Source of the DNA: Candidatus Chisholmbacteria bacterium RIFCSPHIGHO2_01_FULL_52_32
Lineage (GTDB): Bacteria; Patescibacteriota; Microgenomatia; UBA1400; Chisholmbacteraceae
DNA: 64,000 bases
Reading direction: 5' to 3'
Assembly (NCBI GenBank): GCA_001816585.1
Contig: MHCJ01000007.1
Coordinates: forward strand, 2,062 to 66,061
Below the pieces are notes generated by a model that had not been told where the DNA came from, did no database searches, and saw nothing but the letters and a program-made list of their open reading frames with translations. Shown one piece after another: positions 3,060 through 21,601 of this stretch. Numbering within the stretch: the stretch's first letter is position 1; the number at the start of each line of letters is the position of its first letter. A program made the position numbers and the translations under genes.

Positions 3060-3386
3060 TTACGAGGAGTGTTGCCCGCCAGGATGGATACTTTCAAGCT
3101 TCTCAAGCCTCTCTTCATGATCGTAAACTTTTGGAGCGAAAATATCCAGACTTTCTCGAATAGCTTTCAACTGGCCCATCACATCGGAGATAGCATTCAT
3201 AATTCGACTGCTATACATCTGGAACTTTTCCTCAAGTCTTCGGTCAACGACTTGCTCGATCTGATCAACATCCTGCTCCGTAAGCATAACGACACAATTC
3301 AACCACATCATCCCAAAGGAGTCAACGACATTTTGGGGAAGCAATTCCCCTCCACTCTCCCCTGCATCACTCGGGGAAAAACCCAC
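3060..3386 (-). CDS. hypothetical small protein (uncertain)
   Basis: 108-aa ORF divergent from the gene at 3421; competes with an overlapping plus-strand ORF 3069..3512 that runs out of frame into the next gene. Confidence 0.3.
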   Translation of the reverse strand: MGFSPSDAGESGGELLPQNVVDSFGMMWLNCVVMLTEQDVDQIEQVVDRRLEEKFQMYSSRIMNAISDVMGQLKAIRESLDIFAPKVYDHEERLEKLESIHPGGQHSS

Positions 3387-3420
3387 GCCCGTAAAGGGCT
3401 AGAGAAAAGGAGAAGGGACG

Positions 3421-3879: not shown

Positions 3880-3919
3880 AGCCACCGGGCTCAGGGCTAG
3901 AGAAAAGGAGAAAAGGATC

Positions 3920-4573: not shown

Positions 4574-4728
4574 TCACCCGCTCCGTATCCCGCAACCGAG
4601 GAGGACAAACTGAACAATCCTGACTCGTGAAAGACGGTAGAGACAACCGAAACTCATCCGCCTCCTGATCCCGAACTCACCGACAAGGTGAGAAATCTCC
4701 CGGGCAGGAGAAAGAAGGAGAAGGTGAA

Positions 4729-7065: not shown

Positions 7066-7487
7066 GTAGCACTCGTCCCACGAAGGGACAACCGAACCTC
7101 GCCATTCACCTGGAAGGGACCTCGCTCCCTACACCCGCTCACTGACGTTTCGCGTCAGGAAGAATAGTCAAGTCTGACTTGACGCATTCGGCAGCGGCAG
7201 GGTCGAACCTTTTCAGGTCACAAGGGTATCTGGTAATAGATCGGGCAGAGCAATGCCGTGAAGTCACTGGACGATCGAAAGATCGCGTGTCTTCTGGATT
7301 TCATCCAGACTGACCTCCACCTTCCCCATTGCCCGCGCCCCAAATCTCTACCAGCACTACCCTCCTTGGTCCGTTAAACGGGCCCTGATGAGATCTCGTC
7401 AGGATTGCAATTTGCATCCGACGATCCGTAAACAGGAATCAGGACATTTACCCTGAGCCTGTCGAAGGGCAGATCGAAAGGAAATCA

Positions 7488-8456
7488 CTACCGCTCACCC
7501 ATCACCACCGGCTCCTCATACACCCGCCATTCAATTTTTTCCATGAACCGCTTAAGGTAGTCCCGCTTCCACGCCAAGCTTCGGGGGGATTTCAACACCG
7601 CCAGCGGAAAATTCACCCGCAGCGCCCGGAACCGAATGATATGCCGGGTAATCCCGGGAGGAAACTTCTCTCCGGCCCGAACCACATTCAGCACATCCTG
7701 CGGCCGAAAGGTCGGGAAAAACAACACCACGTTTTTCCCTTGATGACGGCGGAAGAACTCCGCCAGGGTCTCTTCGTCAAAGAACACATCCTCCTGATCG
7801 CGAATCACCAAATGCTTATAGAAATCAACCACCTTGTTCATCAGGGAAACCTGCGAAACAAGCTCCTCATTCCCCCACACTCTGCACGCCTTCCCGTCGG
7901 CAAACACGACCAAACAAACCGTGCGCTTCTCCAAAGACACATGCCGATCCCGACCAACTTTAAGTAAATCAACCGAAACGCCGGGCAGCCCCCGAATAAG
8001 CCTCATGAACCGTCGCTCGTCAACCGCGGACACATGGCACCAGGATTTCAACTCGACCGACCGGGGATCAAAATAATCAACCACCTGAACGATCGCGTGG
8101 GGATAGCCGAGTTCCGCAAGGGTGGTAAGCCGATTCGCCCCATCCAAGTGGAGGTACCGCGAACCAAAGGCGGCCACGATCGGCGGGTTCATGAGCACTC
8201 CGTCCTCCTCTATTTTCCGCAGTAAGTCACGCGAAATACCGGAGTCAAAGTACTCCTGGATAACAACCGAGCGTAGGGGAACAATCCGAAGATCGGGAAG
8301 AAGGTAGGACATGAAAAGAGCATAGTGTATGAAAAAACTCACCGCAATAGGAAAGAGGAAGCCATATGCCAAAAACACCCCGCCAAAAAAGTTGCAGTCG
8401 GGGTGTATAATTGGGAGTGCCTGCTCCAGAAGAAATTGAACAATACTCCTGCCCAA
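7488..8456 (-). CDS. membrane-anchored protein with a ParB/Srx-like N-terminal domain (degenerate LDGANRL motif)
   Basis: 322 aa; N-terminal TM helix; the segment RYLHLDGANRLTTLAELGYPHAIVQVV resembles the ParB nuclease-domain core. Confidence 0.55.
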   Translation of the reverse strand: MGRSIVQFLLEQALPIIHPDCNFFGGVFLAYGFLFPIAVSFFIHYALFMSYLLPDLRIVPLRSVVIQEYFDSGISRDLLRKIEEDGVLMNPPIVAAFGSRYLHLDGANRLTTLAELGYPHAIVQVVDYFDPRSVELKSWCHVSAVDERRFMRLIRGLPGVSVDLLKVGRDRHVSLEKRTVCLVVFADGKACRVWGNEELVSQVSLMNKVVDFYKHLVIRDQEDVFFDEETLAEFFRRHQGKNVVLFFPTFRPQDVLNVVRAGEKFPPGITRHIIRFRALRVNFPLAVLKSPRSLAWKRDYLKRFMEKIEWRVYEEPVVMGER

Positions 8457-8619
8457 GTTTTCAATAAAAGATTGTTACGACAGTGATAACATCTCTAATC
8501 GACTTTTCCAAACCTGCCTGACACCTCCGAAAAAAGGGGTGTCGAACGTTTCCGTCGCGCCCAGGCGGCTGAATGTATCGTGCTCAGCCGATCGTTGGCG
8601 TGAGCGGAAAGCACTTTGA

Positions 8620-8684
8620 CCACGCTACAACTCCTGCCGGCAAAATCCGCTTAGCGTATTCTTGCGGGCGCGTCGTATACGTGG
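8620..8684. repeat. copy C of the 65-nt structured repeat (outer stem CCACG/CGTGG, variant inner stem)
   Basis: identical 5' block CCACGCTACAACTCCTGCC and 3' block GCGCGTCGTATACGTGG as copy B; about 30 nt of additional downstream similarity to the flank of copy B. Confidence 0.6.
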
Positions 8685-8899
8685 TTTGCGGTGCAAAAGC
8701 ACCTTAACAAGTGAATGATGAGGTTACTTGTCCCTTTTGTGGGACAAGGAATTCTCTATAGCCCCGGAAAACTCGACAATCGTGCGTTGCAGAGACATCC
8801 CCCGCGTTCCGCCAATCGGCGGACTACTGAGGAAAAGGAGGTCAACAGGAAACGGCCTATCAATCCGCGCGCTAAATCAAGTACGAAGGAGACGTTCCC

Positions 8900-9202
8900 A
8901 TGGCAAGACGGATCGGAATGGTCGTCGGGAGCGCTATTGGGCTGGCTGTCGGAGTGCCCGTCGCCATCGTCATGGTAGCCTCACGGCCGCACTTCAACAT
9001 CCAAAGCCCGGACGCCACGATTATCTGGTTCGCGCTGGTCTTCATCCTTCTCACCGTCTTGCCATACGTCTGCGCAGTGTTCTTCGGTGAGATAGCTGAA
9101 GCCGTCGTCCAGAAAGTGAACAAGCGTCGCAAACCACCGGCACCACCTCAAGCAGCGGTTGCGACCGACTCAAGGCCGCGACCAAGGGAGAAGCAGCCAT
9201 GA
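8900..9202 (+). CDS. small membrane protein (2 TM)
   Basis: 100 aa; ATG preceded by AAGGAG; stop overlaps the start of the next gene (ATGA). Confidence 0.55.
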   Translation: MARRIGMVVGSAIGLAVGVPVAIVMVASRPHFNIQSPDATIIWFALVFILLTVLPYVCAVFFGEIAEAVVQKVNKRRKPPAPPQAAVATDSRPRPREKQP

Positions 9203-10092
9203 AGACAAAACTGCAACCGATGATCCTCGTTTGCACGGCACTCTTCCTGGTCTCGTGCAGTAGAGATGCCTCCGCGCTGAGCAGCGGTGAGATCGCCGCC
9301 ACGGCACTCGCCGCAGATCTCCGGGAAACCGAGCAAGTCAACCAGGCGAAAGATCAAGCCAATCAGGCAACCGAGCAAGCCATCCAAGCTACTCAGGCAG
9401 CCCTGGAACAACCAACGGACATCCCCATACCAGTGGTGGCAACCCAACCAACCGAAGAGGTCTCTTCCTTTGCAGACATGGGTCTGAACCACTGGGCGTA
9501 TCAAGGCCGCAAGTGGGCCATCGACCAGGGTTATGCGACCGCATGCTCGGTCGAGGGCGGAGATCCGACCCAAGTCTACGCCTGCCCGGACAAGCCGATG
9601 CAAATCTGGGAGCTCATCGAGTCCGGAGTCAGGTTCTACCATGACACCCAGTCGTTCAGACCGCCGGAGGCCACGGGCAGAACCTTCGATGACCCTGACT
9701 TTCACGGCCACGAAGGTGAAGCGTGGGCAGAGGATGCCAGTCGGCAAAACATCCTTCCCGATTGGTTCCTCACCAACTACCCCAACCCGCACTACATCGG
9801 GCCCTTCCGCACGGCGACCCGCTGCGACGGCCACGTCTTTGTGCGGGTGCTCCTCTACAAGAAGCTCGAGTTCCCCAACTGGGACCTTTTGGCAGAGCGT
9901 CAATTCTCGGACTACTACAAAGCCTCGAGACTCTGCAATCAAGCCGCGGAAGCCAACCTCGAAGAGGGGATCTTCGACCCGGGCCCGGCAAGCCTGCTGG
10001 AGCCTGAACGGGAACTTGACTGGGGGTATTGGTCCGTCCTCCTCTATCAGGCTGACTCCGTCCGAACCAAGAACTCCGATCCGGCTAACTAG
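9199..10092 (+). CDS. secreted lipoprotein, function unknown
   Basis: 297 aa; lipobox-like LVSC after the signal peptide; the long antisense ORF 9148..10209 is rejected. Confidence 0.75.
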   Translation: MKTKLQPMILVCTALFLVSCSRDASALSSGEIAATALAADLRETEQVNQAKDQANQATEQAIQATQAALEQPTDIPIPVVATQPTEEVSSFADMGLNHWAYQGRKWAIDQGYATACSVEGGDPTQVYACPDKPMQIWELIESGVRFYHDTQSFRPPEATGRTFDDPDFHGHEGEAWAEDASRQNILPDWFLTNYPNPHYIGPFRTATRCDGHVFVRVLLYKKLEFPNWDLLAERQFSDYYKASRLCNQAAEANLEEGIFDPGPASLLEPERELDWGYWSVLLYQADSVRTKNSDPAN

Positions 10093-10130
10093 CGGTTGCG
10101 ACCTTCGGCCGTAACCAAGGAGAGGCATCC

Positions 10131-11276
10131 ATGTCCAAACGGTCGTTGATCCTGATTTCATCCGTGTTCGCCATCCTCCTGATTGGAGCCTGCACTCGCG
10201 TAGGTTCACCAGTATCCCAGCAGCAGATGTTGGGAACTTGGGTGGCAGGCAGTGTGACGGCGGTCTTCAGGACGCAGGAAGCTCAAGTCACGCCATCGGC
10301 AACGCCGTCGGCCACTCCACAACCTACGCACACCGCGACGGCTTCCCTCACCGCAACCGCCACCGTCACACCGATCATCGTCGTCGACGTGCCTGATCCC
10401 AAGGAGCGCGAGGACGCTCTTTGGAACATCGACAAGGACCTGATGAGGCCAAAGCTTCGGGACCCGTTGACCTTCGGCCGCAATGATCCCTACATCATGG
10501 GTGACATGGCCATCGCCATGGGGAGAGCCTGCCTGTGGGACAAGATCGAGAAGCCGTTCGGGACGGTTTTCACCGATCTGGGTGTCGTCGTACCCCCTCC
10601 AAGGGCCAGTCCTGAAGAACTCCGGCAGGCCGAGCATCAAAGGCTCGTCCTCGCAGTCTCGGAAGAGCTGTTCCAGCGGGGGCTCTATCTCCACAAGAAC
10701 CCGGCCAAGCCGAACCTGTCCAACTGGGACGACACGCTCACCCCAGATCAACTCCGCCAGTGGTGGGAAATGGCCTCCAACTCTCCCGAGTGCCGGGAGC
10801 AGATGACAAGCTCAGGTGGCGGGAACTCCCCCGGCATCACCCTTTTCACCAACGCCGTCAGTTTCAACCGGGTGAGTCTCCTGGCAAGCACGAACACGCC
10901 GAAGTCGAATCCGATTCCGACCCGGACTCCCGTCCCGAAGCCGACCGACCCACCGGAGCCGAAGCCCAAGACAGCCACGCCGGCTCCGCCAACAGCGGTT
11001 CCTCCATCCAATACGCCGGTACCACCGACCGACACCCCGGTACCACCCAGCAACACGCCCAAACCTGGAGGTGGTGGGAATGACGACGACGACGACCCGA
11101 CCAAGACCCCGAAGCCGGTGATCTATTACACGGCGACACCGTCTATTTGTGTCGATGGCGCCGTGGTCGGCGGCTGTGGTCTGACGAGAATCCAGGCGGC
11201 AGACCTTCTGCATCAATATCTCGCCGACTGGGTTTTCCCGCCCAACCAGCTGCCTCCATCGCAGAACGGTCCCTAG
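10131..11276 (+). CDS. secreted lipoprotein with a Pro/Thr-rich C-terminal linker
   Basis: 381 aa; signal peptide with IGAC lipobox; PT-rich low-complexity region. Confidence 0.75.
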   Translation: MSKRSLILISSVFAILLIGACTRVGSPVSQQQMLGTWVAGSVTAVFRTQEAQVTPSATPSATPQPTHTATASLTATATVTPIIVVDVPDPKEREDALWNIDKDLMRPKLRDPLTFGRNDPYIMGDMAIAMGRACLWDKIEKPFGTVFTDLGVVVPPPRASPEELRQAEHQRLVLAVSEELFQRGLYLHKNPAKPNLSNWDDTLTPDQLRQWWEMASNSPECREQMTSSGGGNSPGITLFTNAVSFNRVSLLASTNTPKSNPIPTRTPVPKPTDPPEPKPKTATPAPPTAVPPSNTPVPPTDTPVPPSNTPKPGGGGNDDDDDPTKTPKPVIYYTATPSICVDGAVVGGCGLTRIQAADLLHQYLADWVFPPNQLPPSQNGP

Positions 11277-11725
11277 CGCCTGCATCCGAAGCAGCGCCTC
11301 TCAGGACCTCATCATTCACAACCAGGGAAACGCACCCGTGTAATACCCACGCGCTAACCCTCTCCCCAGCGGAGAGAAGCAAACGCCGCGCGTTTGGCAA
11401 GACATAGGGAGCGTTCTCCCCCAGGAAAAAACGGGCAAGCTTTTTTGCTTGCGACTGGGCATCAAGTGTGGGGAAAGAACAAGAGAGAATCTGTCTCTCT
11501 GACTGAGGGAACCATCCCTCACTCAAGTTCCCCCCCACTCCCATTCGCAACCATCCGCCCGTTTTTTCATGCCTAAAAAGGGGAAATAGGAGTGCCAAAA
11601 CGATACAGGTTGTACATCCTTTACACAATAAACGATGTTCGGATGAAATAACTTGACCGCAAGGTGTATACTAATCTTCGCGATATATCTTCTGCTCAGT
11701 CTCCTGCTAGAATCTGCCCACCGTA

Positions 11726-12655
11726 ATGAAACAGAAACTCGGATTGGCAATCGGCGTCATCTGCCTCCTTCTTCTCGGAATGGTATCCGCTGTGCGGATC
11801 GCCAAGGCCGCCAGCCCCGCAGCTTGCTCAATCAACACCTTCCCTGTCAATGATCCCAACACCCGTTACCACACGGTCTTCACCTGGAGCAATGCCCACA
11901 CAAACCAATGGTTCCTCTTTCAATGGGGCGATGAAGCCAATACCGGCAAAGATCCCGTGGGATTCATCGGCCAAAGCGGTAGGGCGGAATGGGAACACGA
12001 GTACAACCCCGGAACTTGGGAACAGTGGGCAAACCTTTCCGGTCCGGGAGGAAACGGCGGATGCAAGGTCTCGGTAACCGTCCAGGTCACACAAGACCCC
12101 GCCAGCTGTACAATCGAAGCCTTTGTTGACGGATCAAATCCCAGCCTCTTCCACACGGTACTGCGCTGGAACAACACAAACGATGGCGAGTGGTCCCTTT
12201 TCCATTGGGGCGATGAGGAATTCACCAAAGCCGATCCCCCGGGATTCCGCGGACCGTTTGGGGAAATTTCCTGGGACCACGAGTACAACCCCGGAACCTG
12301 GGATCAGTGGGCCAACGTTGCAGGACCGAGAGGCAATGGGAGTTGTAAAGTCGTGGTTACCGCAAAACTCCAACAACCGGCGGCAACCTGTACCATCACC
12401 ACCAATCCGGTGAATGTCGAACAGACCCGCTTCCATACGACGCTCACTTGGAACAACTCGTACAGCGACCAATGGTCCCTCTTCCACTGGGGCGATGAAG
12501 AATTCACCCAAGCCGGCCCTGTCGGTTTCTTCGGCAGCAATGGAACAACGGAATGGGAACACGAATACAACCCCGGCACCTGGGAACAGTGGGCCAACGT
12601 TTCCGGTCCCGGCGGTCCCAGTGGCTGCAAAGTCATCACTTCCGTCAACCCATAA
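11726..12655 (+). CDS. secreted protein made of three ~95-aa tandem repeats (conserved HT.F/LTW.N....W.LF.WGDE and EHEYNPGTWEQWAN.SGPGGNG.CKV blocks)
   Basis: 309 aa; signal peptide; three collinear internal repeats, each starting with a Cys and ending with CKV. Confidence 0.8.
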   Translation: MKQKLGLAIGVICLLLLGMVSAVRIAKAASPAACSINTFPVNDPNTRYHTVFTWSNAHTNQWFLFQWGDEANTGKDPVGFIGQSGRAEWEHEYNPGTWEQWANLSGPGGNGGCKVSVTVQVTQDPASCTIEAFVDGSNPSLFHTVLRWNNTNDGEWSLFHWGDEEFTKADPPGFRGPFGEISWDHEYNPGTWDQWANVAGPRGNGSCKVVVTAKLQQPAATCTITTNPVNVEQTRFHTTLTWNNSYSDQWSLFHWGDEEFTQAGPVGFFGSNGTTEWEHEYNPGTWEQWANVSGPGGPSGCKVITSVNP

Positions 12656-12697
12656 ACCACCTTGAAAGGTCTGACCTTTCAAGGTAATCTTCCCCAC

Positions 12698-12728
12698 AAA
12701 AAAACCGCCTCTTAAAGCGGTTTTCTTG
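12698..12728 (+). terminator. intrinsic terminator AACCGC-loop-GCGGTT plus T-run
   Basis: follows the stop of 11726..12655; preceded by an A-run, so possibly bidirectional. Confidence 0.55.
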
Positions 12729-12756
12729 TTTCTTGTTTCTTGTTACTCCTGACAGC

Positions 12757-12773
12757 TCAAGATGTGGTAGGAA
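12757..12773 (-). promoter_or_regulatory. 3' half of the pre-16S processing stem (TCAAGATGTGGTAGGAA; pairs with 14394..14410)
   Basis: 17-bp perfect inverted repeat flanking the 16S gene, the arrangement seen in RNase III processing stems. Confidence 0.6.
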
Positions 12774-12788
12774 AAACCGGTTTTTTTA
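12772..12788 (-). terminator. palindromic terminator AAAAACCGGTTTTTTT downstream of the 16S 3' end
   Basis: GC-cored palindrome flanked by A and T runs, about 45 nt after the 16S 3' end. Confidence 0.5.
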
Positions 12789-12828
12789 CAAGACACCGGC
12801 AAACCTTGCGTGAGTGAAAAATATCTCC

Positions 12829-14345
<1,517 letters not shown>

Positions 14346-14393
14346 AAATTTGACGCAGTCAAATCCGCCAACTGGCGGACAGACCACGTCTGA

Positions 14394-14574: not shown

Positions 14575-15906
14575 TTAATTCTTCTCGGATGAATCTTTTG
14601 ATACTTGCTGCTCAACGATAATGCCGCCTCCCAAGCATTCATCTCCGAGATAAAACACCGCTGCTTGCCCTGGAGCGATTCCCCGCTGGGGCTCAGCAAG
14701 TTCCACAAACAACTTTGAATTTTTCACTTTTAACTTTGAACTTATCAGCTCTCCTCCGTGTCTGATTCGCACCTGTAACCCTTTCATGACTGTTAATTCT
14801 TCATTCTTGATTCCGTTGATGAAATGAAGGTCGGCTACCTGAAATTTATCGCGGAATGTTTCTGCTCCAAATCCGACAATCAGCTGATTCCGAACAACAT
14901 TTTTACCCACCACATAGAATGGCGGTATCGCATGTCTCAACTTGTCACTTGTTACTTGTACCTTGTTGCTGATACTGAACCCATGCCTCTGTCCGATCGT
15001 GTAGAACCAAACACCTTTGTGCTTTCCAATAACATCCCCATCGGTATCGACCACATCACCGGTCTTCTCGTTGATTCTGCGCCGTAAAAACTCGCCGACA
15101 TCGACTTCTCCGACAAAACAAATCCCGACCGAGTCTGGTTTATCCGCAGTCAATAACCTACGTCTCTTCGCCTCTCGCCGAACCTGTTTTTTTGTCAGAT
15201 GTCCGACCGGAAACAAAACGTGAGCCAACTGCTCCTGCATTAGCGGGTAGAGGAAATAACTCTGATCTTTCTTGGCATCAATTCCCTGTAAAAGATGATA
15301 CATTCCGATTCCATCTCGGTTGTGGTGAGCGGGGAGACGAACAAATTTGCGCTGGTCACCCAGACCAGGCATATCGCCTGGAAAGACTTCCGGTTTGGCT
15401 CGAAGTTTCGAACGCAATCGTTGGTGACCAAGCAAATTTCCGTTCGGCGACCTCAGCTCACCGAATCCTATCCTCGCGTAATGCCCTGTTGCTACATAAT
15501 CAAACCCGTGGTTCAAAGCCCATCGCAAGAAGAGCCCGAATTTAATCTCCCGATTGCACACCACATCCGGATTCGGCGTCCGTCCAGCTTCGTACTCGCG
15601 ATAAAAATACTCGATGACCTTCTTCCGGTATTCCTTCTGAAAATCCAGCACCTGAAATGGAATCCCAAGCCCAAGGGCTACGCTCAATGCATCCTTCCGA
15701 TCCTCCGGAGCCCGGCACCCCGGTTCATTCCAACACTCAAGGAAAACACCGGTAACATCATAGCCTCGCTCCACAAGCAAAGCCGCCGAAACCGAGGAAT
15801 CTACCCCGCCTGACATACCCACAGCGACACGTCTGCCCTGAACCGTTCCGCCAACTGGCGGATCTGGTTCACGGGCTACTCGAGGGAATTTCTGCCTCTT
15901 CTCCAT
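14575..15906 (-). CDS. mnmA: tRNA-specific 2-thiouridylase MnmA
   Basis: 443 aa; PP-loop SGGVDSS; conserved NPDVVCN and GHYAR motifs; about 30-aa N-terminal extension. Confidence 0.9.
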   Translation of the reverse strand: MEKRQKFPRVAREPDPPVGGTVQGRRVAVGMSGGVDSSVSAALLVERGYDVTGVFLECWNEPGCRAPEDRKDALSVALGLGIPFQVLDFQKEYRKKVIEYFYREYEAGRTPNPDVVCNREIKFGLFLRWALNHGFDYVATGHYARIGFGELRSPNGNLLGHQRLRSKLRAKPEVFPGDMPGLGDQRKFVRLPAHHNRDGIGMYHLLQGIDAKKDQSYFLYPLMQEQLAHVLFPVGHLTKKQVRREAKRRRLLTADKPDSVGICFVGEVDVGEFLRRRINEKTGDVVDTDGDVIGKHKGVWFYTIGQRHGFSISNKVQVTSDKLRHAIPPFYVVGKNVVRNQLIVGFGAETFRDKFQVADLHFINGIKNEELTVMKGLQVRIRHGGELISSKLKVKNSKLFVELAEPQRGIAPGQAAVFYLGDECLGGGIIVEQQVSKDSSEKN

Positions 15907-15973
15907 ATCCAGATTATATCACCTCTGATAGGCACAAACAGCAAACAAAACCCGTAAAAGGTATAATACACTC

Positions 15974-16900
15974 ATGCATGCCAGGCCACTCAATCGCCAA
16001 GCCGCTCTCTACATCGAGGCAGCCAAGAAAATTGGAGCAAGCTATACAATCATCCATCCTGCAGGACTGGTTCGGTTTTCAACCAACGGTAAAAGCACGA
16101 GGATCTACAAGAGCCAGGTCGAAGCCAACAACGCCGTCGCCACCCTCCTTGCAAGAAACAAGTACCACACAAACAGGCTGCTTCAAAAAGCCAAGATTCC
16201 CGTACCCAAGCTCTCCTTTTGCCGAACCGTCGGGGATGCGAAAAAAGCCGCTGCATTAATCGGCTACCCCATTGTCCTTAAACCCACCAAAGGCTCCCGC
16301 GGCCACCGCACGGTCCTAGAAATAAAAGGAGAAAAAGAGTTGATCCAAGCCGCAAGAATTATAAGAAAGGTCAATCACACTTTCCTGGTTGAGAAATTTC
16401 ATCTTGGAAAGGATTACCGCTTTCTTGTCCTAAAAAACAAGGTCATTGGTATCGTCAAACGTCTTCCCCCGACCGTAACGGGCAATGGCAAACAAACGAT
16501 ACAAGAGCTCATCCGCAAACTACCCAGAGTAAAGATAGACGCTGAGGTGAGAAGCGTGCTCCGAAAACAAGGGCAAACCCTCGCAAGTATCCTTAAGAAA
16601 GGGAAAGTTATCCCCATCCGCCGAAACGCTAACTACTCAACCGGAGGCTCGGCAGAAACCGTAGACAAGAGCCAAATCCATCCCGCGATCCTTAGGCTTA
16701 CCGTTAAAACAGCCCAAACCATAGGAATCACGCTTGCGGGCGTCGATATGCTCATTAAAAGCACGTCAGAGCCCCCAAAAGACAACGCCGTCGTCATCGA
16801 AGTCAATTCCAAACCAAGCATTTTTATCCATCACCACCCCGACCGCGGCCGACCCCAACCCGTCGCCAAAACCATCCTCAACCACCTCCTCCGCCTTTAA
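15974..16900 (+). CDS. RimK-like ATP-grasp amidoligase (paralog 1)
   Basis: 308 aa; collinear with the RimK/GshB architecture (YPIVLKP.KGS.G, DYRFLVL, VIEVNS.P); tandem paralog of the next gene. Confidence 0.8.
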   Translation: MHARPLNRQAALYIEAAKKIGASYTIIHPAGLVRFSTNGKSTRIYKSQVEANNAVATLLARNKYHTNRLLQKAKIPVPKLSFCRTVGDAKKAAALIGYPIVLKPTKGSRGHRTVLEIKGEKELIQAARIIRKVNHTFLVEKFHLGKDYRFLVLKNKVIGIVKRLPPTVTGNGKQTIQELIRKLPRVKIDAEVRSVLRKQGQTLASILKKGKVIPIRRNANYSTGGSAETVDKSQIHPAILRLTVKTAQTIGITLAGVDMLIKSTSEPPKDNAVVIEVNSKPSIFIHHHPDRGRPQPVAKTILNHLLRL

Positions 16901-16942
16901 GCGGTATAATACCGCAAGGCTTAGGAATGACGACAACCATTT

Positions 16943-17860
16943 ATGCTGAACCCACACACCGCTCTCTTTATCAAAGCCGCCCAAAAATTGGGGGTCGGTT
17001 ACCGGATCGTTAACCCACCGACGCTTGTCCGTTTCACGAAAAACGGGAAATCAACCCTGATCTACAGAACCCAAATCGAGGCAAACGCCCTGATCCCCTC
17101 CCTCCTCTGCCTATCGAAGTACCAAACGAACTTGACGCTGCGGAAAGCCAAACTTCCGGTTCCAAAGCAACTCTGTTGCCAATCGGCGGAAGATGCCCGG
17201 ACGGCTGTTAAAGAGATCGGCTTTCCCCTGGTCGTTAAACCGCTCAAAGGTCTGGGCGGGAAATATGTAACGGTCAATATCAAGTCTGAAACGGAACTAA
17301 GAAAAGCGGTAAATCAAGTCCTCAAAGAACACCGTGGTTTTGTCGTCGAAAAGTTTTGCCAAGGGAAAGATTACCGCTTCCTCGTTTTGAAGGGAAAGCT
17401 GATCGGAATCGTAAAAAGAGAACCACCGACCGTAACGGGGGATGGAAAACATAGCGTCAGACAATTGCTGATGATAGGTAATCCGAAGCTCCCGATCGAC
17501 GCGGAACTCCGACAAACACTCACAAGACGAGGTTTGCAGTTAAACAGCGTGCCTCAAACAGGAATCGTGGTTAAGCTTCGCAAGAACGCCAACATCACGA
17601 CCGGCGCCGACTCCAGTACCGTAACAAACAACACCATCCACCCGGACCTCCGAAAGCTCGCCATCAAAGCCGTAAGCGTAATGGGCATGAGCTTTGCGGG
17701 TGTCGATATGCTGATAAAAAATCCGAAAAAACCAAGAAAAGACAATGCCGTTATTCTGGAGTTAAACTCCCAGCCGGGAATTGATATCCATGAGCGCCCG
17801 GACAAAGGCATTCCCCAACCCGTCGCCGAAACCATCCTCAGGTACCTCCTCCACCTTTAA
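16943..17860 (+). CDS. RimK-like ATP-grasp amidoligase (paralog 2)
   Basis: 305 aa; about 50% identical by eye to 15974..16900. Confidence 0.8.
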   Translation: MLNPHTALFIKAAQKLGVGYRIVNPPTLVRFTKNGKSTLIYRTQIEANALIPSLLCLSKYQTNLTLRKAKLPVPKQLCCQSAEDARTAVKEIGFPLVVKPLKGLGGKYVTVNIKSETELRKAVNQVLKEHRGFVVEKFCQGKDYRFLVLKGKLIGIVKREPPTVTGDGKHSVRQLLMIGNPKLPIDAELRQTLTRRGLQLNSVPQTGIVVKLRKNANITTGADSSTVTNNTIHPDLRKLAIKAVSVMGMSFAGVDMLIKNPKKPRKDNAVILELNSQPGIDIHERPDKGIPQPVAETILRYLLHL

Positions 17861-17921
17861 GGGAGTCTCCCTTCAAGGGGACTCCAATACAATACTATAG
17901 GAACTTTAAAGGTTCGACCTT

Positions 17922-19382
17922 TCAAGGTAGGTCAACTGGCTGCAAATCCAACCGAAAGTAAACTTCATTCACTATCGTCCTCGCCCATTCGTTGAGTCGA
18001 TTGTGCGTTCCGTCCAAAATCGTTCGTCCGAACACCAATTTTCCGCAGCGAAGGTGTGGCTTCACCAAATCTCCCCTCCTTGGCACCCCATCGGTAAGCA
18101 CAAACTCATCAGGATGTTGTATATCAAGCGGTGTCACTCCCTCCCTCACCCACTCGACTCCAAACTTTTCACTTTTCACTTTAAACTTTGAACTTAACTT
18201 ATAGACTCCCGCCTTCAAATCACCTTTCACTTCTGCCCACCGTTCCGGATCCTTATTATGTAAGACCAAATGCGCCCCCTCCTTCGGCGCCTTCAACGAT
18301 CGATCAACCGCTGCAAAGTCCATCGTATAGTTGATGTCCAAGAACTCTAAAAGCTGGAACACATCAAATGGGATTTCCCCCTTCTGGAGCTGAAGAAACG
18401 AATAGACCGGGAACGCTCCGGTGTAGCGCGGGTTGATCTCATTGGGATAAACCTTCCCTGACTTAGCATCAATCATCAAATCCACCCCAAAAACACCTTT
18501 GTACCCCTGATGCGCCATCGCTTCACCCAGGTTTCTGGCAATCCGCTCCGCCCCTTTCTGTATCGCTGAAGAATAATGTCGGAAGCTCCAATCGTGTCCC
18601 CGCCAGATTCCCCGCCGCTCCCTCAGATTCACAAGCTCCGGAACATCAAGAATCTGCGTCTGCACCAAACCAGTTAACACTCCGTACCGAGTTACACAAC
18701 CCGTTATCGACCCAGAAATCCCATCAATGAAGCGACTGACGTTCACCAACTGCGTTCGAGAAAGATCCAATCGCCCTTTTGCATCCTCCAAAAATGTCCG
18801 AAAGTCAGAAATATCATTGATAAAATACGTTCCTTTTCCTCCACCTTCCGAGAAACTCGTAAGCTGAAACACCAACTGCCTCCCTAGCCTCTTCCTTAGC
18901 CTCCGGTAGTCATCCTCGGTAAATTTCTCAACCTCCCACTGCTCCCCCGGGATTGGAGCCAGTCCGAGTCGTCTAACCAGTGTAAAGAACGCATCCTTAT
19001 CCTCAAACTGATCCCGGATCGCCCGCGGATTGGCAAGAAGCAGCCATCCTTGCTCCTGACAAAACCGATCCACCCACTCCGTATGCTTATAGGAAAAGAC
19101 GGCTATCTTCCCCAGGCTTTGCAAATACCGTAAAACCCCGGGATGCTTAAGAATGGCCTGCGTGTTGAGTTTTTCAACCTCATTTGGAGAGAAGTCGCGC
19201 TGCACTGCTCGGATCGGGCAAAACCGCTTCAGGAAAGAGAGATCGCTCCCCCACTTGTAGCAGACAATCTCGTAGTTTGATGTCACCAAAGCCGGAGAAA
19301 TCCTCCCAAACGCCGTCAGTCCAATTCCCACAATATGGCGCCCTGCCCCATCAAGAAGCTTACAGTAATCCTGAAATTCCAT
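17922..19382 (-). CDS. large ATP-grasp superfamily enzyme (pre-ATP-grasp plus ATP-grasp core)
   Basis: 486 aa; the segment GVFGVDLMIDAKSGKVYPNEINPRYTG is typical of the ATP-grasp C-terminal subdomain. Confidence 0.7.
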   Translation of the reverse strand: MEFQDYCKLLDGAGRHIVGIGLTAFGRISPALVTSNYEIVCYKWGSDLSFLKRFCPIRAVQRDFSPNEVEKLNTQAILKHPGVLRYLQSLGKIAVFSYKHTEWVDRFCQEQGWLLLANPRAIRDQFEDKDAFFTLVRRLGLAPIPGEQWEVEKFTEDDYRRLRKRLGRQLVFQLTSFSEGGGKGTYFINDISDFRTFLEDAKGRLDLSRTQLVNVSRFIDGISGSITGCVTRYGVLTGLVQTQILDVPELVNLRERRGIWRGHDWSFRHYSSAIQKGAERIARNLGEAMAHQGYKGVFGVDLMIDAKSGKVYPNEINPRYTGAFPVYSFLQLQKGEIPFDVFQLLEFLDINYTMDFAAVDRSLKAPKEGAHLVLHNKDPERWAEVKGDLKAGVYKLSSKFKVKSEKFGVEWVREGVTPLDIQHPDEFVLTDGVPRRGDLVKPHLRCGKLVFGRTILDGTHNRLNEWARTIVNEVYFRLDLQPVDLP

Positions 19383-19390
19383 GAACTTAT

Positions 19391-20677
19391 CTATTCCGAA
19401 CGTACCAAAAAAGTCTTCAGGTCCTTTCGACCGATCAAAAGCTTTTCTCTGAATTTTGACCGATCGGATACCGAAATCGCTGTCTTTACCCTCCGACCGG
19501 AAAGCCAGTAGGTAAGCTCAATGACCGGCCGCCGCTCCCGGCCCAAAGAACTGTAATAATAGTTCTGCCAGAGAATGTTTCCCTTCCGTAGTAACCCCAA
19601 GCTTTTGGCAAGTTTCCTGTCTATACTTGAGCGGAATGCCCCCGTATCCACCTTGGCTAGGATCTCAAGTTTCTTGCCATGCGCGTCTTTCACCTTGACC
19701 AATTCATGGACACCGATAATCTTTGCTCCCCGTTTTGCCAACACCCGATCGGCAAAGCTCTCCGCAAACAGAGCCCGGGAAATCTGGATCCCCTTTCCCT
19801 TCCCAGCCTGCTCGAGTCCCTCAACCCGTTCAAGCCGTTTTTGTAAGCCAGCCCTGTTGGCAATCTGGATTCCTAAACCCGGCCGCGCCGTCAGCTCGAG
19901 TATCATCGGTCCCTTCTTGCTGTGGAGGACAAAGTCAGCCGCCATGTATCCTAAACCGACCTCGCGCGCGACCGCCAGGGAAATTTCAAGCATCTCATCC
20001 CACTGCGGGATCCGAAGACCGGAAACCTTCTTCCCTGATACGGGAACATAGAGTGTCGGCCGGTCGAAGATCGTCCCGTGGGTAGTTATCCCCGTGGCCA
20101 AATCGACCCCCAAACACAGGCCGCCTTGATGAAGGTTGGCCTTACCATGCGATCCCGGAGTGGGTAGCCTCAGCATTGCCATGATGGGAACTTGGTTGAA
20201 CACGATGATCCGGACATCAGGCGTCCCGCGGTACGCATAGTGTCGAAAAGCCGGATGTCTGGGAACCCGTTCTTCAATAAATGCGGTATCCGGCATCTCG
20301 TACTTGTGGTAATTCCCCTCCAAGATATCCAAAACATGGAGCTTCAGATCATCGAGCAGTATCTCTTCCTGCTCAACGGAAAGGAAAGCCTCGCTTCCTA
20401 GTCGTCTTTTGACGATCACAATCCCGTCTCCGCCGTACCCTTCGCTCGGCTTAATCACGAAGTTTCGCCGTAAAGATCCCCAATCGAACCGCGGGACATC
20501 GGAGAAGTTCCGGAAAACGCCATAAAGCTCCGGATGAGGGAAACCGTGACGCCGGAGGAAGCGCTTCGTCAGAAGCTTGCTATCGGCAATCGCCTTTCCC
20601 TGCTTGCTGTTGTAGCGGGAAAGAAAGAGATGATTTCGGGCATTGAGGCCCATGATGTGGGAAACCAAAAAAGCCAT
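19391..20677 (-). CDS. alpha-L-glutamate-ligase-like (sugar-transfer-associated type) ATP-grasp fused to a C-terminal retropepsin-like (putative ATP-dependent zinc protease) domain
   Basis: 428 aa; N-terminal 290 aa carry ATP-grasp motifs (FVIKPSEGYGGDGIVIV, ADFVLHSKKGPMILELTARPG); C-terminal 130 aa resemble the RimK-associated retropepsin-like domain; 8-bp gap to the downstream gene. Confidence 0.7.
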   Translation of the reverse strand: MAFLVSHIMGLNARNHLFLSRYNSKQGKAIADSKLLTKRFLRRHGFPHPELYGVFRNFSDVPRFDWGSLRRNFVIKPSEGYGGDGIVIVKRRLGSEAFLSVEQEEILLDDLKLHVLDILEGNYHKYEMPDTAFIEERVPRHPAFRHYAYRGTPDVRIIVFNQVPIMAMLRLPTPGSHGKANLHQGGLCLGVDLATGITTHGTIFDRPTLYVPVSGKKVSGLRIPQWDEMLEISLAVAREVGLGYMAADFVLHSKKGPMILELTARPGLGIQIANRAGLQKRLERVEGLEQAGKGKGIQISRALFAESFADRVLAKRGAKIIGVHELVKVKDAHGKKLEILAKVDTGAFRSSIDRKLAKSLGLLRKGNILWQNYYYSSLGRERRPVIELTYWLSGRRVKTAISVSDRSKFREKLLIGRKDLKTFLVRSE

Positions 20678-20680
20678 ATT

Positions 20681-21601
20681 CTATCCGATAAGTTCTCGGA
20701 ACCTCCAGTACTCGAGTAGCCGTAACCCGACGTACTTCCCCAAAAACACATCAAAAACTGCAACCGAAATGACGGTGAGTTCAGGATTGAGAATGGTAAA
20801 TCGTTGCAGGAATTCCATGGATAGTACCAGATAGCAGATGACGGCAAGAAGGACCGTCTCGCTGGCAAGCTCTACCGCCCGCCGCATCCCCAGGCCCATC
20901 TGCGAACCGATAAAGGTCTCCGTCAAAAGGACAAGCAAAAGAATAGGAAAGATCGAAAGCGAGACCAAGGTTCCCAAACCCAAGTACGGGTATAGGACAA
21001 GTACCGCAAAGATCGACAGGGAAACAAACCACAAAAGCAGGGCAATCCGGGGCAGATACTGCAGCCGCAATTGGCGAAGTGAAATCCGCGTTACCGTTGC
21101 GACAGAGAGGATCATCAGAAAGAAAAGGATACCGACCGTCACTCCTGTTGCGAGAAAGACTATAGAGAGGGCCGCGGTCGTAAACAGTCCGTACCCCCGC
21201 AGTCCGATGAGGTGTCTGGCTGAGGCGATAATCGCTCCCACCAAGGGAAATAAAAGGATCAAAACCAATGTTGTTGCCGGAACACCACGCGCAACCGCCC
21301 GTCGGATCGCATGCTGAAGGAAATTGTTGATCGATAAAGGCCCCGGATCTTTTTGCGCCAGGTACTGCTCAAGCTTTCCCTTGGCTGGACCCGCCGGTTC
21401 GGTAAGATCCGTGGTATCTTCTCGCATCACCACCACCGTTTCAACGGCGGACGATCCCGTTGCCGCGAGTACTGCCTCGGTCGCTTCCGCATCCAAAGCG
21501 GAAGCATTTGCCGCCCTGATTAACAGGAAAATGCCAAACACGATTACAAGGACTGCCGAAGGACGCCTCTTCATGAGAGGAATTATACTCCTGTAAGGCA
21601 A
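20681..21601 (-). CDS. polytopic membrane protein (signal/anchor, ~80-aa ectodomain, 6-7 TM), probable partner of the ATP-grasp
   Basis: 306 aa; 3-bp gap to 19391..20677; topology matches 7-TM proteins reported next to sugar-transfer ATP-grasp genes. Confidence 0.65.
   Translation of the reverse strand: MPYRSIIPLMKRRPSAVLVIVFGIFLLIRAANASALDAEATEAVLAATGSSAVETVVVMREDTTDLTEPAGPAKGKLEQYLAQKDPGPLSINNFLQHAIRRAVARGVPATTLVLILLFPLVGAIIASARHLIGLRGYGLFTTAALSIVFLATGVTVGILFFLMILSVATVTRISLRQLRLQYLPRIALLLWFVSLSIFAVLVLYPYLGLGTLVSLSIFPILLLVLLTETFIGSQMGLGMRRAVELASETVLLAVICYLVLSMEFLQRFTILNPELTVISVAVFDVFLGKYVGLRLLEYWRFRELIG

What the first reader, a model, noticed from the sequence alone, without database searches (positions are those of the whole stretch)
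15974..21601. Five-gene ATP-grasp amidoligase island next to the glycosylation locus
Four consecutive genes carry ATP-grasp ligase domains.

- Plus strand: two tandem RimK-like paralogs at 15974..17860.
- Minus strand: a tight operon with gaps of 3 and 8 bp. It runs in the order 7-TM membrane protein, then ATP-grasp fused to a retropepsin-like (putative ATP-dependent zinc protease) C-terminal domain, then a large 486-aa ATP-grasp.

From memory of comparative-genomic literature on amidoligases, a sugar-transfer-associated ATP-grasp paired with a 7-TM partner and RimK-like ligases is a computationally predicted but experimentally uncharacterised system for adding amino acids or peptides to cell-surface glycans or protein tags.

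The retropepsin-like fusion and the doubling of the RimK-like ligases (possibly sequential addition of two residues) make this version elaborate. Its position directly upstream of a 42-kb glycosylation locus supports a role in decorating envelope polymers with amino acids.

A graspetide (microviridin-like) pathway is an alternative reading of the tandem RimK-like pair, but no precursor-peptide ORF was found.
Basis: partly seen in the sequence, partly recalled or inferred. Interest (0 to 1): 0.8.

Follow-up and report, generated by a model that had tools for sequence, protein, structure and literature searches.

The report
CPR-type Rlo-like ligase–protease membrane module
This is a real five-gene cluster in a Candidatus Chisholmbacteria genome: a membrane protein, a peptide ligase fused to a polyglutamate-type protease, and three further ATP-grasp ligases, forming a previously undescribed but widespread variant of the recently named Rlo stress-tolerance system, with no conserved link to the neighbouring sugar genes.

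Summary
Five genes lie at the stated coordinates, four have ATP-grasp folds, and the minus-strand trio is packed with 3- and 8-bp gaps.

- The 7TM protein plus the ATPgrasp_ST ligase with a retropepsin tail is a variant of the RloB/RloC/RloA system, which was studied genetically in Pseudomonas in 2025.
- Here the protease is fused to the C-terminus of the cytoplasmic ligase instead of being secreted. The 7TM protein lacks the inactive transglutaminase ectodomain.
- The "RimK-like" pair resembles the cyanophycin-synthetase G domain far more than RimK.
- The 486-aa protein founds a small family, named so far only from candidate-phyla-radiation (CPR) bacteria. It sits directly downstream of the fusion gene in 9 of 10 contexts examined.

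Across 47 fused-type loci, the 7TM gene is adjacent in 44. Extra ATP-grasp ligases are adjacent in 28 of 41 informative loci. Glycosyltransferases are not enriched, so the neighbouring glycosylation locus is lineage-specific synteny. No precursor peptide can fit in the gaps, so a graspetide pathway is rejected.

Most likely function (inferred): building and trimming glutamate-type peptide chains on the cytoplasmic face of the membrane, on an unknown acceptor.

Verdict: a new variant of a known kind, of moderate interest.

The parts
15974..16900 (+). P1: stand-alone ATP-grasp ligase (308 aa) resembling the G domain of cyanophycin synthetase; intact E-V-N Mg-binding motif
   Evidence: ORF. NCBIfam cyanophycin synthetase models, 232-236 bits over model positions ~165-472. 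PDB 7wac CphA1, E 2.5e-41, aligned to residues 171-479. 392 cluster representatives at E<=1e-30, a mix of stand-alone ~300-340 aa proteins and CphA-length proteins.
16943..17860 (+). P2: paralogue of P1 (305 aa, 50% identical); intact E-L-N motif
   Evidence: ORF. Cyanophycin synthetase models, 225-226 bits. P1 vs P2: 50.3% identity, E 7e-108.
17861..17885 (.). Imperfect hairpin GGGAGTCTCCCTTCAAGGGGACTCC in the 61-bp gap between the convergent P2 and P3 genes; possible bidirectional terminator (inferred)
   Evidence: Read directly from the sequence. The consensus terminator scan did not call it.
17922..19382 (-). P3: 486-aa three-domain ATP-grasp enzyme (biotin-carboxylase / PurK / L-amino-acid-ligase fold class), member of a small family dedicated to this module
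19391..20677 (-). P4: fusion of an RloC-type ATP-grasp ligase with a C-terminal retropepsin-like protease (428 aa)
   Evidence: ATPgrasp_ST, 211 bits. TIGR02291, 274.5 bits. The top 120 homologues listed are fusions covering 88-100% of the query, all but one at 98% or more. Model pLDDT 80.8 with two confident domains and a flexible linker at 275-313.
19820..20638 (-). P4 ATP-grasp domain (aa 14-286); 41-44% identical to unfused proteobacterial RloC; carries E261-L-T263 in place of the canonical E-x-N
   Evidence: Pfam coordinates. tblastn identities to L050-L086. Motif comparison. Foldseek: CphA1, RimK and ArgX/LysX, E ~1e-10.
19394..19723 (-). P4 retropepsin-like (RloA/RimB-type) domain (aa ~319-428); catalytic D344-T-G at nt 19640-19648
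   Evidence: hhalign against stand-alone RloA: 98.7% probability, E 4.5e-16. Profile vs RloA crystal structure 9g59: E 3.9e-6. K342, D344, R383 and R406 are invariant in 20 fusions and align to the RloA residues reported to bind polyglutamate.
20681..21601 (-). P5: RloB-like 7TM membrane protein without the inactive transglutaminase ectodomain. N-terminal signal/anchor, then a ~70-aa acidic linker, then the 7TM domain (aa 113-304; nt 20690-21265). The publicly annotated start is ATG 21574.
   Evidence: 7TM_transglut, 86 bits. The RloB model matches only positions 313-506 of 508. Hydropathy. Conserved R129, E228 and the C-terminal G-x3-G-x-R-x2-E-x2-R-F motif across CPR and Proteobacteria. Annotated start.

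Best explanation
The island is a candidate-phyla-radiation (CPR) version of the Rlo/Rim type of peptide-tail system.

Shown:
- P5 is an RloB-like 7TM membrane protein.
- P4 joins an RloC-type ATP-grasp ligase to an RloA/RimB-type retropepsin in one polypeptide. Its ATP-dependent ligase domain and lack of a signal peptide imply that it is cytoplasmic.
- P3, P1 and P2 are three further ATP-grasp carboxylate-amine ligases that are evolutionarily linked to this pair.

Inferred mechanism:
- The P4 ligase domain adds alpha-linked glutamate-type residues to the C-terminal carboxylate of an unidentified acceptor, either a peptide or free glutamate.
- The fused protease domain works as a homodimer. It trims acidic chains and possibly stimulates the ligase, as RimB does for RimK.
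- P1 and P2 (related to the cyanophycin-synthetase G domain, the C-terminal ligase domain of GshF, and N-acetylglutaminylglutamine synthetase) and P3 (related to L-amino-acid ligases) add or prime further residues.
- P5 holds the machinery at the membrane through its invariant cytoplasmic C-terminal motif. It either passes the product outward or regulates the enzymes.

The chemical product and the acceptor are unknown.
For: - Family assignments.
- The catalytic DTG motif and the K/R residues that bind polyglutamate in RloA (K46, R114, R137 in PMC12239564) align with K342, R383 and R406 of P4. These are invariant in 20 fusion homologues.
- RimB cleaves polyglutamate and stimulates RimK to make free poly-alpha-L-glutamate. 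A natural RimB-RimK hybrid is active (PMC11957791).
- In Pseudomonas, deleting rloB or rloC suppresses the protease-null phenotype. This means the ligase and the 7TM protein make what the protease removes.
- Linkage: the 7TM gene is directly upstream of the ligase in 44 of 47 fused loci and in nearly all unfused loci. Extra ATP-grasp ligases are adjacent in 28 of 41 informative loci, across different gene orders and strands. P3-like genes are directly downstream of the fusion in 9 of 10 contexts.
- Other peptidases or glutamate-related enzymes join the module in related loci: a MATCAP metallocarboxypeptidase, adjacent or fused; a GATase/Peptidase_C26 protein; an Asp/Glu racemase overlapping the P3-like gene; an FGase-family (N-formylglutamate amidohydrolase) gene next to a P3 relative outside the module.
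- P1, P2 and P3 keep the E-x-N(-x-R) catalytic motifs.
Against: - No activity, substrate or product has been measured for any CPR member, and the product of the Pseudomonas Rlo system is itself unknown.
- The window's P4 and its subclade have Thr in place of the Mg-binding Asn of the E-x-N motif, so its ligase activity could be altered.
- The CPR protease domain lacks ~24 residues in the region where RloA's non-conserved substrate contacts lie, probably including the flap. Its specificity may therefore differ from polyglutamate.
- P4 falls just below the TIGR02291 cut-off (274.5 vs 314.2), and its Pfam/NCBIfam protease matches are sub-threshold.
- The fold of P3 does not discriminate a ligase from a carboxylase.
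- The C-termini of the 7TM proteins are basic, not acidic, so they are not obvious acceptors. No candidate acceptor protein was found.
Confidence: 0.5

Rival explanations
1. Envelope-polymer decoration. The ligases add amino acids or short peptides to a lipid-linked glycan or peptidoglycan precursor at the inner face of the membrane, and the 7TM protein handles the lipid-linked intermediate.
For: - Pfam names the P4 family 'sugar-transfer associated'.
- The window and the sister Chisholmbacteria locus abut glycosyltransferases.
- Pseudomonas rlo mutants have cell-shape, beta-lactam and hypo-osmotic phenotypes that the authors suggest could stem from cell-wall defects.
- PBP1-type genes follow the module in L087 and L090, and an Asp/Glu racemase plus MurD follow it in L092.
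- From memory: D-aspartate ligases that build peptidoglycan cross-bridges are ATP-grasp enzymes encoded next to a racemase.
Against: - Glycosyltransferases are not enriched next to the module: 5 of 148 flanking genes in 45 loci, at least two of them from the Chisholmbacteria loci.
- Peptidoglycan genes are also only sporadic: Transgly and Transpeptidase match 3 of 148 each.
- The conserved partners are peptidases specific for peptide chains (retropepsin, MATCAP), not sugar-modifying enzymes.
Confidence: 0.2
2. Post-translational tailing of a specific cytoplasmic protein, as RimK/RimB does for ribosomal protein S6. The 7TM protein would be only a regulator or sensor.
For: - A cytoplasmic ligase plus retropepsin mirrors RimK/RimB and the RimBK hybrid.
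- The structural neighbours of P4's ligase domain include RimK and the ArgX/LysX enzymes that act on carrier-protein C-termini.
- The module lies next to the rplKAJL operon in two separate CPR lineages: convergent in Woesebacteria and co-directional in Saccharibacteria.
- MATCAP relatives are protein C-terminal carboxypeptidases.
Against: - The ligase is RloC-type, not RimK-type: rimK_fam 39.5 bits against a cut-off of 143.4.
- The near-obligate 7TM partner points to a membrane-linked process.
- The ribosomal-operon adjacency amounts to only two independent events and could be chance.
- No acceptor with an acidic C-terminus was identified.
Confidence: 0.12
3. A cyanophycin-like storage or osmolyte polymer, or a small peptide, is made mainly by P1/P2 (and P3). 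The P5-P4 pair would be a functionally separate neighbour.
For: The closest characterised relatives of P1 and P2 are the polymerising G domains of CphA1/CphA2, the C-terminal ligase domain of GshF, and N-acetylglutaminylglutamine synthetase, which makes an osmoprotectant dipeptide.
Against: - P1 and P2 lack the N and M domains that define cyanophycin synthetase.
- No Mur-ligase-like gene lies in the island.
- CphA-G-like ligases recur beside the fusion gene in 12 loci from several CPR phyla and in different arrangements, which argues for one system, not two.
Confidence: 0.1
4. A graspetide (microviridin-like) RiPP pathway or an anti-phage defence system.
For: Several ATP-grasp genes lie together, and graspetide clusters have been predicted in CPR bacteria (PMC8939145).
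Against: - All intergenic gaps are 67 bp or less. The only small ORFs overlap genes or the hairpin.
- P1 has no graspetide-ligase hit in the PDB at E<=1e-3.
- There are no PADLOC matches.
Confidence: 0.03

Closest known systems
RloABC operon of Pseudomonas aeruginosa (Lormand et al., mBio 2025, PMC12239564)
   Same: - A 7TM_transglut membrane protein is encoded immediately upstream of an ATPgrasp_ST / TIGR02291-type ligase (41-44% identity to P4 residues 8-290).
- There is a clan-AA retropepsin with DTG and the conserved K/R residues that bind polyglutamate.
   Different: - The protease is fused to the C-terminus of the cytoplasmic ligase instead of being a separate secreted protein encoded upstream. 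It has no signal peptide and is shorter by ~24 residues in the region that probably includes the flap.
- The 7TM protein lacks the ~300-residue inactive-transglutaminase ectodomain.
- Three additional ATP-grasp ligases are present.
- The host is a CPR bacterium, whereas the paper reports 96% of RloB hits from Proteobacteria.
RimK/RimB and the RimBK hybrid (Little et al., JBC 2025, PMC11957791)
   Same: A glutamate ligase and a polyglutamate-specific retropepsin act in the cytoplasm, and in RimBK they share one polypeptide. [quoted passage not shown]
   Different: - Domain order is reversed: in RimBK the protease is N-terminal.
- The ligase belongs to ATPgrasp_ST, not the RimK family.
- There is an obligate 7TM partner.
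- No link to ribosomal protein S6 has been shown.
Cyanophycin synthetase CphA1/CphA2 G domain; C-terminal ATP-grasp domain of GshF; N-acetylglutaminylglutamine synthetase
   Same: P1 and P2 align end to end with the ATP-grasp G domain that extends a peptide at its C-terminal carboxylate (E 2.5e-41; 226-236 bits).
   Different: P1 and P2 are stand-alone ~305-aa proteins with no N (primer-anchoring) or M (Mur-ligase-like) domain, so they are not cyanophycin synthetases. Their substrates are unknown.
Biotin carboxylase / PurK / L-amino-acid-ligase class of ATP-grasp enzymes (NCBIfam PRK06524)
   Different: - Only ~11-16% identity.
- The biotin-carboxylase general-base Glu appears to be replaced by Ala323. 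This alignment was made by eye against the E. coli sequence recalled from memory.
- No biotin carrier or carboxyltransferase gene was seen in any of the ten contexts.
- The family is tied to the 7TM/fusion module.
Tubulin tyrosine-ligase-like enzymes with MATCAP carboxypeptidases (eukaryotic tubulin tail cycle)
   Same: In related CPR loci the same ligase is adjacent or fused to a MATCAP-family peptidase, pairing an ATP-grasp ligase with a peptidase of a family known to remove C-terminal residues.
   Different: No MATCAP gene is present in this window. The resemblance is by analogy only, and no target protein is known.

Membership tests
RloABC system | RloC: cytoplasmic ATPgrasp_ST / TIGR02291-type ligase | tested here: met
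   PF14397, 211 bits (cut-off 31.4). TIGR02291, 274.5 bits, slightly below its equivalog cut-off of 314.2. 41-44% identity to proteobacterial RloC.
RloABC system | RloB: 7TM domain encoded directly upstream of the ligase | tested here: met
   PF14402, 86 bits. 3-bp gap to P4. The same adjacency occurs in 44 of 47 fused loci and nearly all unfused loci.
RloABC system | RloB: periplasmic inactive transglutaminase domain | tested here: not met
   The RloB model matches only positions 313-506 of 508 (66 bits against a cut-off of 900). P5 has only ~100 residues before the 7TM domain.
RloABC system | RloA: retropepsin fold with DTG and polyglutamate-binding K/R residues | tested here: met
   hhalign 98.7%, E 4.5e-16. 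K342, D344, R383 and R406 are invariant and aligned to RloA structure residues.
RloABC system | RloA: separate secreted protein with an N-terminal signal peptide, encoded upstream of rloB | tested here: not met
   The domain is the C-terminal part of P4, after the ATP-grasp domain. No other RloA-like ORF is in the window. The proteobacterial RloA ORFs I extracted begin with hydrophobic, signal-like N-termini, judged by eye.
RloABC system | Role in hypo-osmotic stress tolerance, with rloB/rloC loss suppressing protease loss | not testable with these tools
   Needs genetics.
RimBK hybrid / RimK system | RimK-family ligase (TIGR00768) | tested here: not met
   P4 scores 39.5 bits against a cut-off of 143.4. 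Pfam RimK scores 24 bits against ATPgrasp_ST at 211 bits.
RimBK hybrid / RimK system | Protease domain N-terminal to the ligase | tested here: not met
   P4 has the ligase at aa 14-286 and the protease at aa ~319-428. RimBK has RimB at residues 1-163.
RimBK hybrid / RimK system | Acts on ribosomal protein S6 with a C-terminal Glu-Glu | not tested
   No rpsF gene was noticed among the window ORFs examined, but I did not search for one specifically.
Cyanophycin synthetase (CphA1) | ATP-grasp G domain | tested here: met
   P1: E 2.5e-41 to 7wac residues 171-479. 226-236 bits to the NCBIfam models.
Cyanophycin synthetase (CphA1) | N domain and Mur-ligase-like M domain in the same protein | tested here: not met
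   P1 and P2 are 308 and 305 aa and cover only model positions ~158-472 of 862-871, far below the cut-offs of 850 and 877 bits.
Graspetide (microviridin-type) gene cluster | Precursor-peptide gene next to the ligase | tested here: not met
   Gaps of 67, 42, 61, 8, 3 and 40 bp. The only small ORFs overlap genes or the hairpin.
Graspetide (microviridin-type) gene cluster | MdnB/MdnC-type macrocyclase ATP-grasp | tested here: not met
Biotin carboxylase (P3) | Three-domain biotin-carboxylase fold | tested here: met
Biotin carboxylase (P3) | Catalytic general-base Glu (E. coli E296) and a biotin-carrier / carboxyltransferase partner | tested here: not met
   The P3 loop E315-I-N-P-R319-Y-T-G-A323-F-P places Ala at the E296 position. 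This alignment was made by eye and the E. coli motif is from memory. G322, F324 and P325 are conserved. No carrier or transferase gene was seen in ten contexts.
Pfam ATPgrasp_ST as 'sugar-transfer associated' | Conserved neighbourhood with sugar transferases | tested here: not met
   Glycos_transf_1 matched 5 of 148 flanking genes in 45 loci. Glycos_transf_2 was not among the 25 commonest families. No glycosyltransferase cluster was shared by 4 or more loci.

The most novel reading that the evidence does not exclude
CPR bacteria carry a widespread, self-contained machine for editing amino-acid tails. Up to four ATP-grasp ligases and up to two unrelated peptidase types (retropepsin and MATCAP) are organised around a minimal RloB-like 7TM protein.

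The protease here is fused to the cytoplasmic ligase. This implies that the Rlo substrate is made and edited on the cytoplasmic side of the membrane. That would revise the working picture of the Pseudomonas system, where the protease is secreted. It would also point to a membrane-proximal acceptor, such as a peptidoglycan precursor or a membrane-protein tail, or to a regulated glutamate/polyglutamate buffer.

P3 would then define a new ligase family with a dedicated step in this pathway.
Probability: 0.25. Interest if true: 0.75.

Novelty: new variant of a known kind. Interest (0 to 1): 0.55.

Why it matters
- The Rlo system affects antibiotic tolerance, biofilm formation and cell shape in Pseudomonas, but its substrate is unknown, and RloB was described as almost confined to Proteobacteria.
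- A stripped-down, fused version turns out to be common across many CPR phyla. Their genomes are small, so a conserved cluster of four ATP-consuming ligases is notable.
- This gives a minimal form of the system to study. The transglutaminase ectodomain and protease secretion are dispensable in this lineage. The invariant residues of the 7TM domain and its C-terminal motif mark what is essential.
- The accessory ligases and peptidases (MATCAP, C26-type) constrain what the product can be, namely a peptide chain and probably a glutamate-rich one.
- It also removes a tempting but unsupported link to the adjacent glycosylation locus.

Tried and rejected
Statements about it rest on memory and on Pfam family names only.
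- The afdb50 fold library was unavailable.
- The word-indexed homologue search for P1 found only 8 hits, so I used the exhaustive HMMER search instead.
- Promoter and terminator consensus scans found fewer sites than in shuffled sequence (1 vs 3.9; 3 vs 9.3) and were uninformative.
- The small-ORF scan gave only ORFs that overlap genes or the intergenic hairpin, so I rejected a precursor peptide.
- Foldseek with the whole P4 model listed only ATP-grasp hits in the top 50. The protease domain had to be tested by sequence profiles.
- P5 has no detectable solved homologue.
- PADLOC gave no matches, so I rejected a known defence system.
- I considered the 7TM protein's own C-terminus as the polyglutamylation acceptor and rejected it, because the conserved tail is basic.
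- I considered P3 as a true biotin carboxylase and judged it unlikely (loop motif, no partner genes), but did not exclude it.
- The 183/184-aa proteins that join the module in some loci have no Pfam match and no homologue in the window.
- Several ENA MAG titles (Gammaproteobacteria, Pseudomonadales, Bdellovibrionales) on fused-type loci conflict with their CPR-like synteny. I treated them as unreliable, not as evidence for fused forms outside CPR.

Full report
**Observation**

- P1, 15974-16900(+), 308 aa
- P2, 16943-17860(+), 305 aa
- P3, 17922-19382(-), 486 aa
- P4, 19391-20677(-), 428 aa
- P5, 20681-21601(-), 306 aa

The minus-strand genes are separated by 3 and 8 bp. P1 and P2 are separated by 42 bp. 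P2 and P3 converge on a 61-bp spacer that holds an imperfect hairpin. Exact-sequence look-up identifies the source as a Candidatus Chisholmbacteria MAG (candidate phyla radiation, CPR). There the proteins are annotated only as hypothetical or "ATP-grasp domain-containing". The public annotation starts P5 at ATG 21574 (297 aa), not at TTG 21601.

**What the proteins are**

- **P4** scores 211 bits to Pfam ATPgrasp_ST over residues 14-286 and 274.5 bits to NCBIfam TIGR02291 (cut-off 314.2). It has sub-threshold matches to Zn_protease/RimB-like and RloA models at its C-terminus.
- **P5** scores 86 bits to 7TM_transglut. It matches only the last ~195 positions of the 508-position RloB model, so the inactive transglutaminase ectodomain is absent. 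Hydropathy shows an N-terminal signal or anchor, a ~70-residue acidic linker, and then the multi-pass domain.
- **P1 and P2** pass the Pfam RimK threshold (57-58 bits). They score 226-236 bits against the G-domain region of cyanophycin synthetase models and align to solved CphA1 at E 2.5e-41. RimK structures reach only about 1e-5 to 1e-7. They are 50% identical to each other.

**The protease domain**

- In 20 fusion homologues D344, G346 and A347 are invariant, and T345 is conserved in at least 90%.
- The P4 model has two confident domains (ATP-grasp core and an all-beta C-domain at 319-428) joined by a low-confidence linker.
- A profile of the C-domain finds the RloA crystal structures 9G59 and 9G58 (E 3.9e-6 and 1e-3).
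- Against a profile of six stand-alone proteobacterial RloA proteins, hhalign gives 98.7% probability and E 4.5e-16 over 104 columns.
- K342, D344, R383 and R406 of P4 align with K26, D28, R94 and R117 of chain 9g58_A. With an offset of 20 these fit K46, D48, R114 and R137, the residues reported to bind polyglutamate and to be required for RloA function. The offset is my inference.
- The CPR domain lacks ~24 residues in the region where RloA's non-conserved substrate contacts lie, probably including the flap.

**Literature**

- Lormand et al. (PMC12239564) named rloA (secreted retropepsin), rloB (inactive transglutaminase plus 7TM) and rloC (ATP-grasp) in P. aeruginosa. RloA cleaves runs of 8 or more Glu. 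Deleting rloB or rloC suppresses the triple-protease mutant. The authors state that 96% of RloB hits are proteobacterial and that the substrate is unknown.
- Little et al. (PMC11957791) showed that cytoplasmic RimB removes Glu from polyglutamylated S6 and stimulates RimK to make free poly-alpha-L-glutamate of up to 28-36 residues. A natural RimBK hybrid, with the protease N-terminal, is active.
- A full-text search for the family names found nothing else relevant.

**Comparative genomics**

- The fusion architecture is common. The 120 best hits listed for P4 cover 88-100% of the query, all but one at 98% or more. The organism names attached to them are all CPR lineages.
- A scan of species-representative genomes gave 43 loci (L007-L049) of the fused type, a few of them truncated by contig ends. 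Their informative titles name Woese-, Levy-, Moran-, Kaiser-, Paceibacterota, Peregrini-, Saccharibacteria and Altimarinota. It also gave unfused RloC-type loci, mostly proteobacterial. Some ENA MAG titles contradict the CPR-like synteny of their loci and are probably unreliable.
- In 47 fused-type loci, the 7TM gene is directly upstream in 44. At least one further ATP-grasp ligase lies within 5 kb in 29 loci, or 28 of the 41 loci with enough downstream sequence. Twelve loci carry CphA-G-like ligases.
- The arrangement varies, which argues for functional linkage and not inherited synteny. The ligases are convergent in Chisholmbacteria-like loci and form one co-directional operon in Woesebacteria.
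- The 7TM ORF is ~300 aa in most CPR loci and ~510 aa in Proteobacteria.
- P3 homologues number only 123. All those that carry an organism name are CPR. In nine of ten contexts they sit immediately downstream of the fusion gene, including members only 29-33% identical. In the exception, L091, the P3-like gene sits in an oligopeptide ABC-transporter operon next to an FGase-family gene.
- Other recurring additions are a MATCAP-family metallocarboxypeptidase, adjacent or fused to the ligase in ~800-aa proteins, a GATase/Peptidase_C26 protein, and, once, an Asp/Glu racemase overlapping the P3-like gene and followed by MurD.

**The glycosylation argument**

The downstream locus is real. It holds GT2, GT4, PMT-type and other large membrane proteins, RmlD and methyltransferases. 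The adjacency is shared only with the sister Chisholmbacteria locus. In a Pfam census of 148 genes flanking the module in 45 loci, the commonest families were RuvC (9), L7/L12 (9) and YebC (7). Glycos_transf_1 matched 5 members and Glycos_transf_2 did not reach the top 25.

**Mechanism**

The domain identities, the conserved catalytic and substrate-binding residues, and the gene linkage are shown. The rest is inferred:
- P4 adds and trims alpha-linked, glutamate-type chains in the cytoplasm, by analogy with RimK/RimB and RimBK. This fits the Pseudomonas epistasis.
- P1, P2 and P3 extend or prime the chain. All their characterised relatives ligate an amino acid to a carboxylate of a peptide or amino acid.
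- P5 anchors or regulates the enzymes, or exports the product.

The 7TM domain keeps near-invariant R129, an intramembrane E228, and a C-terminal G288-x3-G292-x-R294-x2-E297-x2-R300-F301 motif across CPR and Proteobacteria. I interpret this motif as a cytoplasmic docking element. Its tail is basic, so the 7TM protein itself is an unlikely polyglutamylation acceptor.

Caveats:
- No biochemistry exists for any CPR member.
- The window's P4 subclade has E-L-T instead of the Mg-binding E-x-N.
- The shortened protease region may change specificity.

**Rivals**

- Decoration of an envelope polymer or peptidoglycan remains possible. The evidence is the Pseudomonas cell-wall-like phenotypes and the sporadic PBP1 or MurI/MurD neighbours. 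It lacks conserved genomic support.
- Tailing of a specific protein is possible. The rplKAJL adjacency in two lineages is a weak hint.
- A separate cyanophycin-like pathway is unlikely, because P1/P2-like genes travel with the module and lack the N and M domains.
- Graspetide and defence readings are rejected.

**Verdict**

This is a new variant of a known kind: an Rlo-like system with a cytoplasmic fused protease in the opposite domain order to RimBK, a minimal RloB, and an accessory ligase set that includes a family (P3) known so far almost only from CPR. It is widespread in CPR but undescribed in the searchable literature. Interest is moderate (0.55). It does not solve the substrate problem, but it offers a minimal system and several constraints for solving it.

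Noticed in passing
window 1239-12832: An 11.6-kb block lies between tRNA-Ile (1166-1238, minus strand) and the 16S rRNA gene (12833-14347, minus strand). Its GC content is mostly higher than the rest of the window (up to 0.63 against ~0.50). None of the eight ORFs tested (3421-12652) has a Pfam match. Public annotation calls the five I looked up hypothetical or uncharacterised, with one UniRef 'ParB/Sulfiredoxin domain' name and one 'SLH domain' name. No 23S rRNA gene is in the window, so the rRNA genes are unlinked or interrupted by an insertion.
   Followed up: partly
window 15960-15969 and 16901-16915: The decamer GGTATAATAC, which contains a perfect TATAAT, lies just upstream of the start codons of both P1 and P2. 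The second copy sits inside the perfect palindrome GCGGTATAATACCGC. These may be separate promoters with very short leaders, or a regulatory site. The consensus promoter scan did not call either.
   Followed up: no
window 19889-19897 (P4 residues 261-263): P4 of this genome and its Chisholmbacteria-related subclade have E-L-T where every other RloC-type sequence compared, fused or unfused, has the Mg-binding E-L-N of ATP-grasp enzymes (E-x-N in general). All other active-site positions stay conserved. The consequence for activity is unknown.
   Followed up: partly
L005, L009, L010, L012-L016 (Woesebacteria-like); L041-L043 (Saccharibacteria): The module lies next to the ribosomal rplKAJL operon in two separate CPR lineages: convergent in one and co-directional directly downstream of rplL in the other. 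The tRNA thiouridylase gene mnmA is near the module in six loci, including the window. Either could be chance synteny or a hint at the target.
   Followed up: partly
L038, L044, L048; L025, L036, L039, L041, L042, L088, L092: Some CPR lineages fuse the ATPgrasp_ST ligase to a MATCAP-family (DUF1704) metallocarboxypeptidase, giving ~800-aa proteins, or encode one next to it. This pairs a ligase with a peptidase in a way that recalls the eukaryotic tubulin tail cycle.
   Followed up: partly
L092 7416-9476: An Asp/Glu racemase gene overlaps the end of the P3-like gene by 4 bp and is followed by MurD. From memory, this resembles the pairing of D-aspartate ligase with a racemase in peptidoglycan cross-bridge synthesis. 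It was seen only once.
   Followed up: no
L007-L009, L012-L014, L017, L018, L020-L023, L029, L034, L039, L040, L045-L047, L049: ENA 'TPA_asm' MAG records titled uncultured Gammaproteobacteria, Pseudomonadales or Bdellovibrionales carry CPR-type fused loci with CPR-like neighbours, for example the same YebC-RuvC or rplKAJL synteny as the named Moranbacteria and Woesebacteria loci. The organism names in these records look unreliable.
   Followed up: no
window 14575-15906: The MnmA protein of this genome (443 aa) is about 70 residues longer than that of the sister Chisholmbacteria locus (369 aa). The Pfam HUP-domain match is split into two stretches, which suggests an internal insertion.
   Followed up: no
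window 21642-58736: The glycosylation locus contains unusual fusions: two double-GT4 proteins (761 and 775 aa), one GT4-methyltransferase fusion (619 aa), and several 750-990-aa membrane proteins with only weak PTPS_related or YfhO matches that may be GT-C-type transferases.
   Followed up: partly
L001 10828-11382; L005 11132-11683: Proteins of 184 and 183 aa with no Pfam match join the module in the sister Chisholmbacteria locus and in Woesebacteria. The two did not detect each other at E<=1e-5, and neither has a homologue in the window. Their role (acceptor, carrier or regulator) is unknown.
   Followed up: partly
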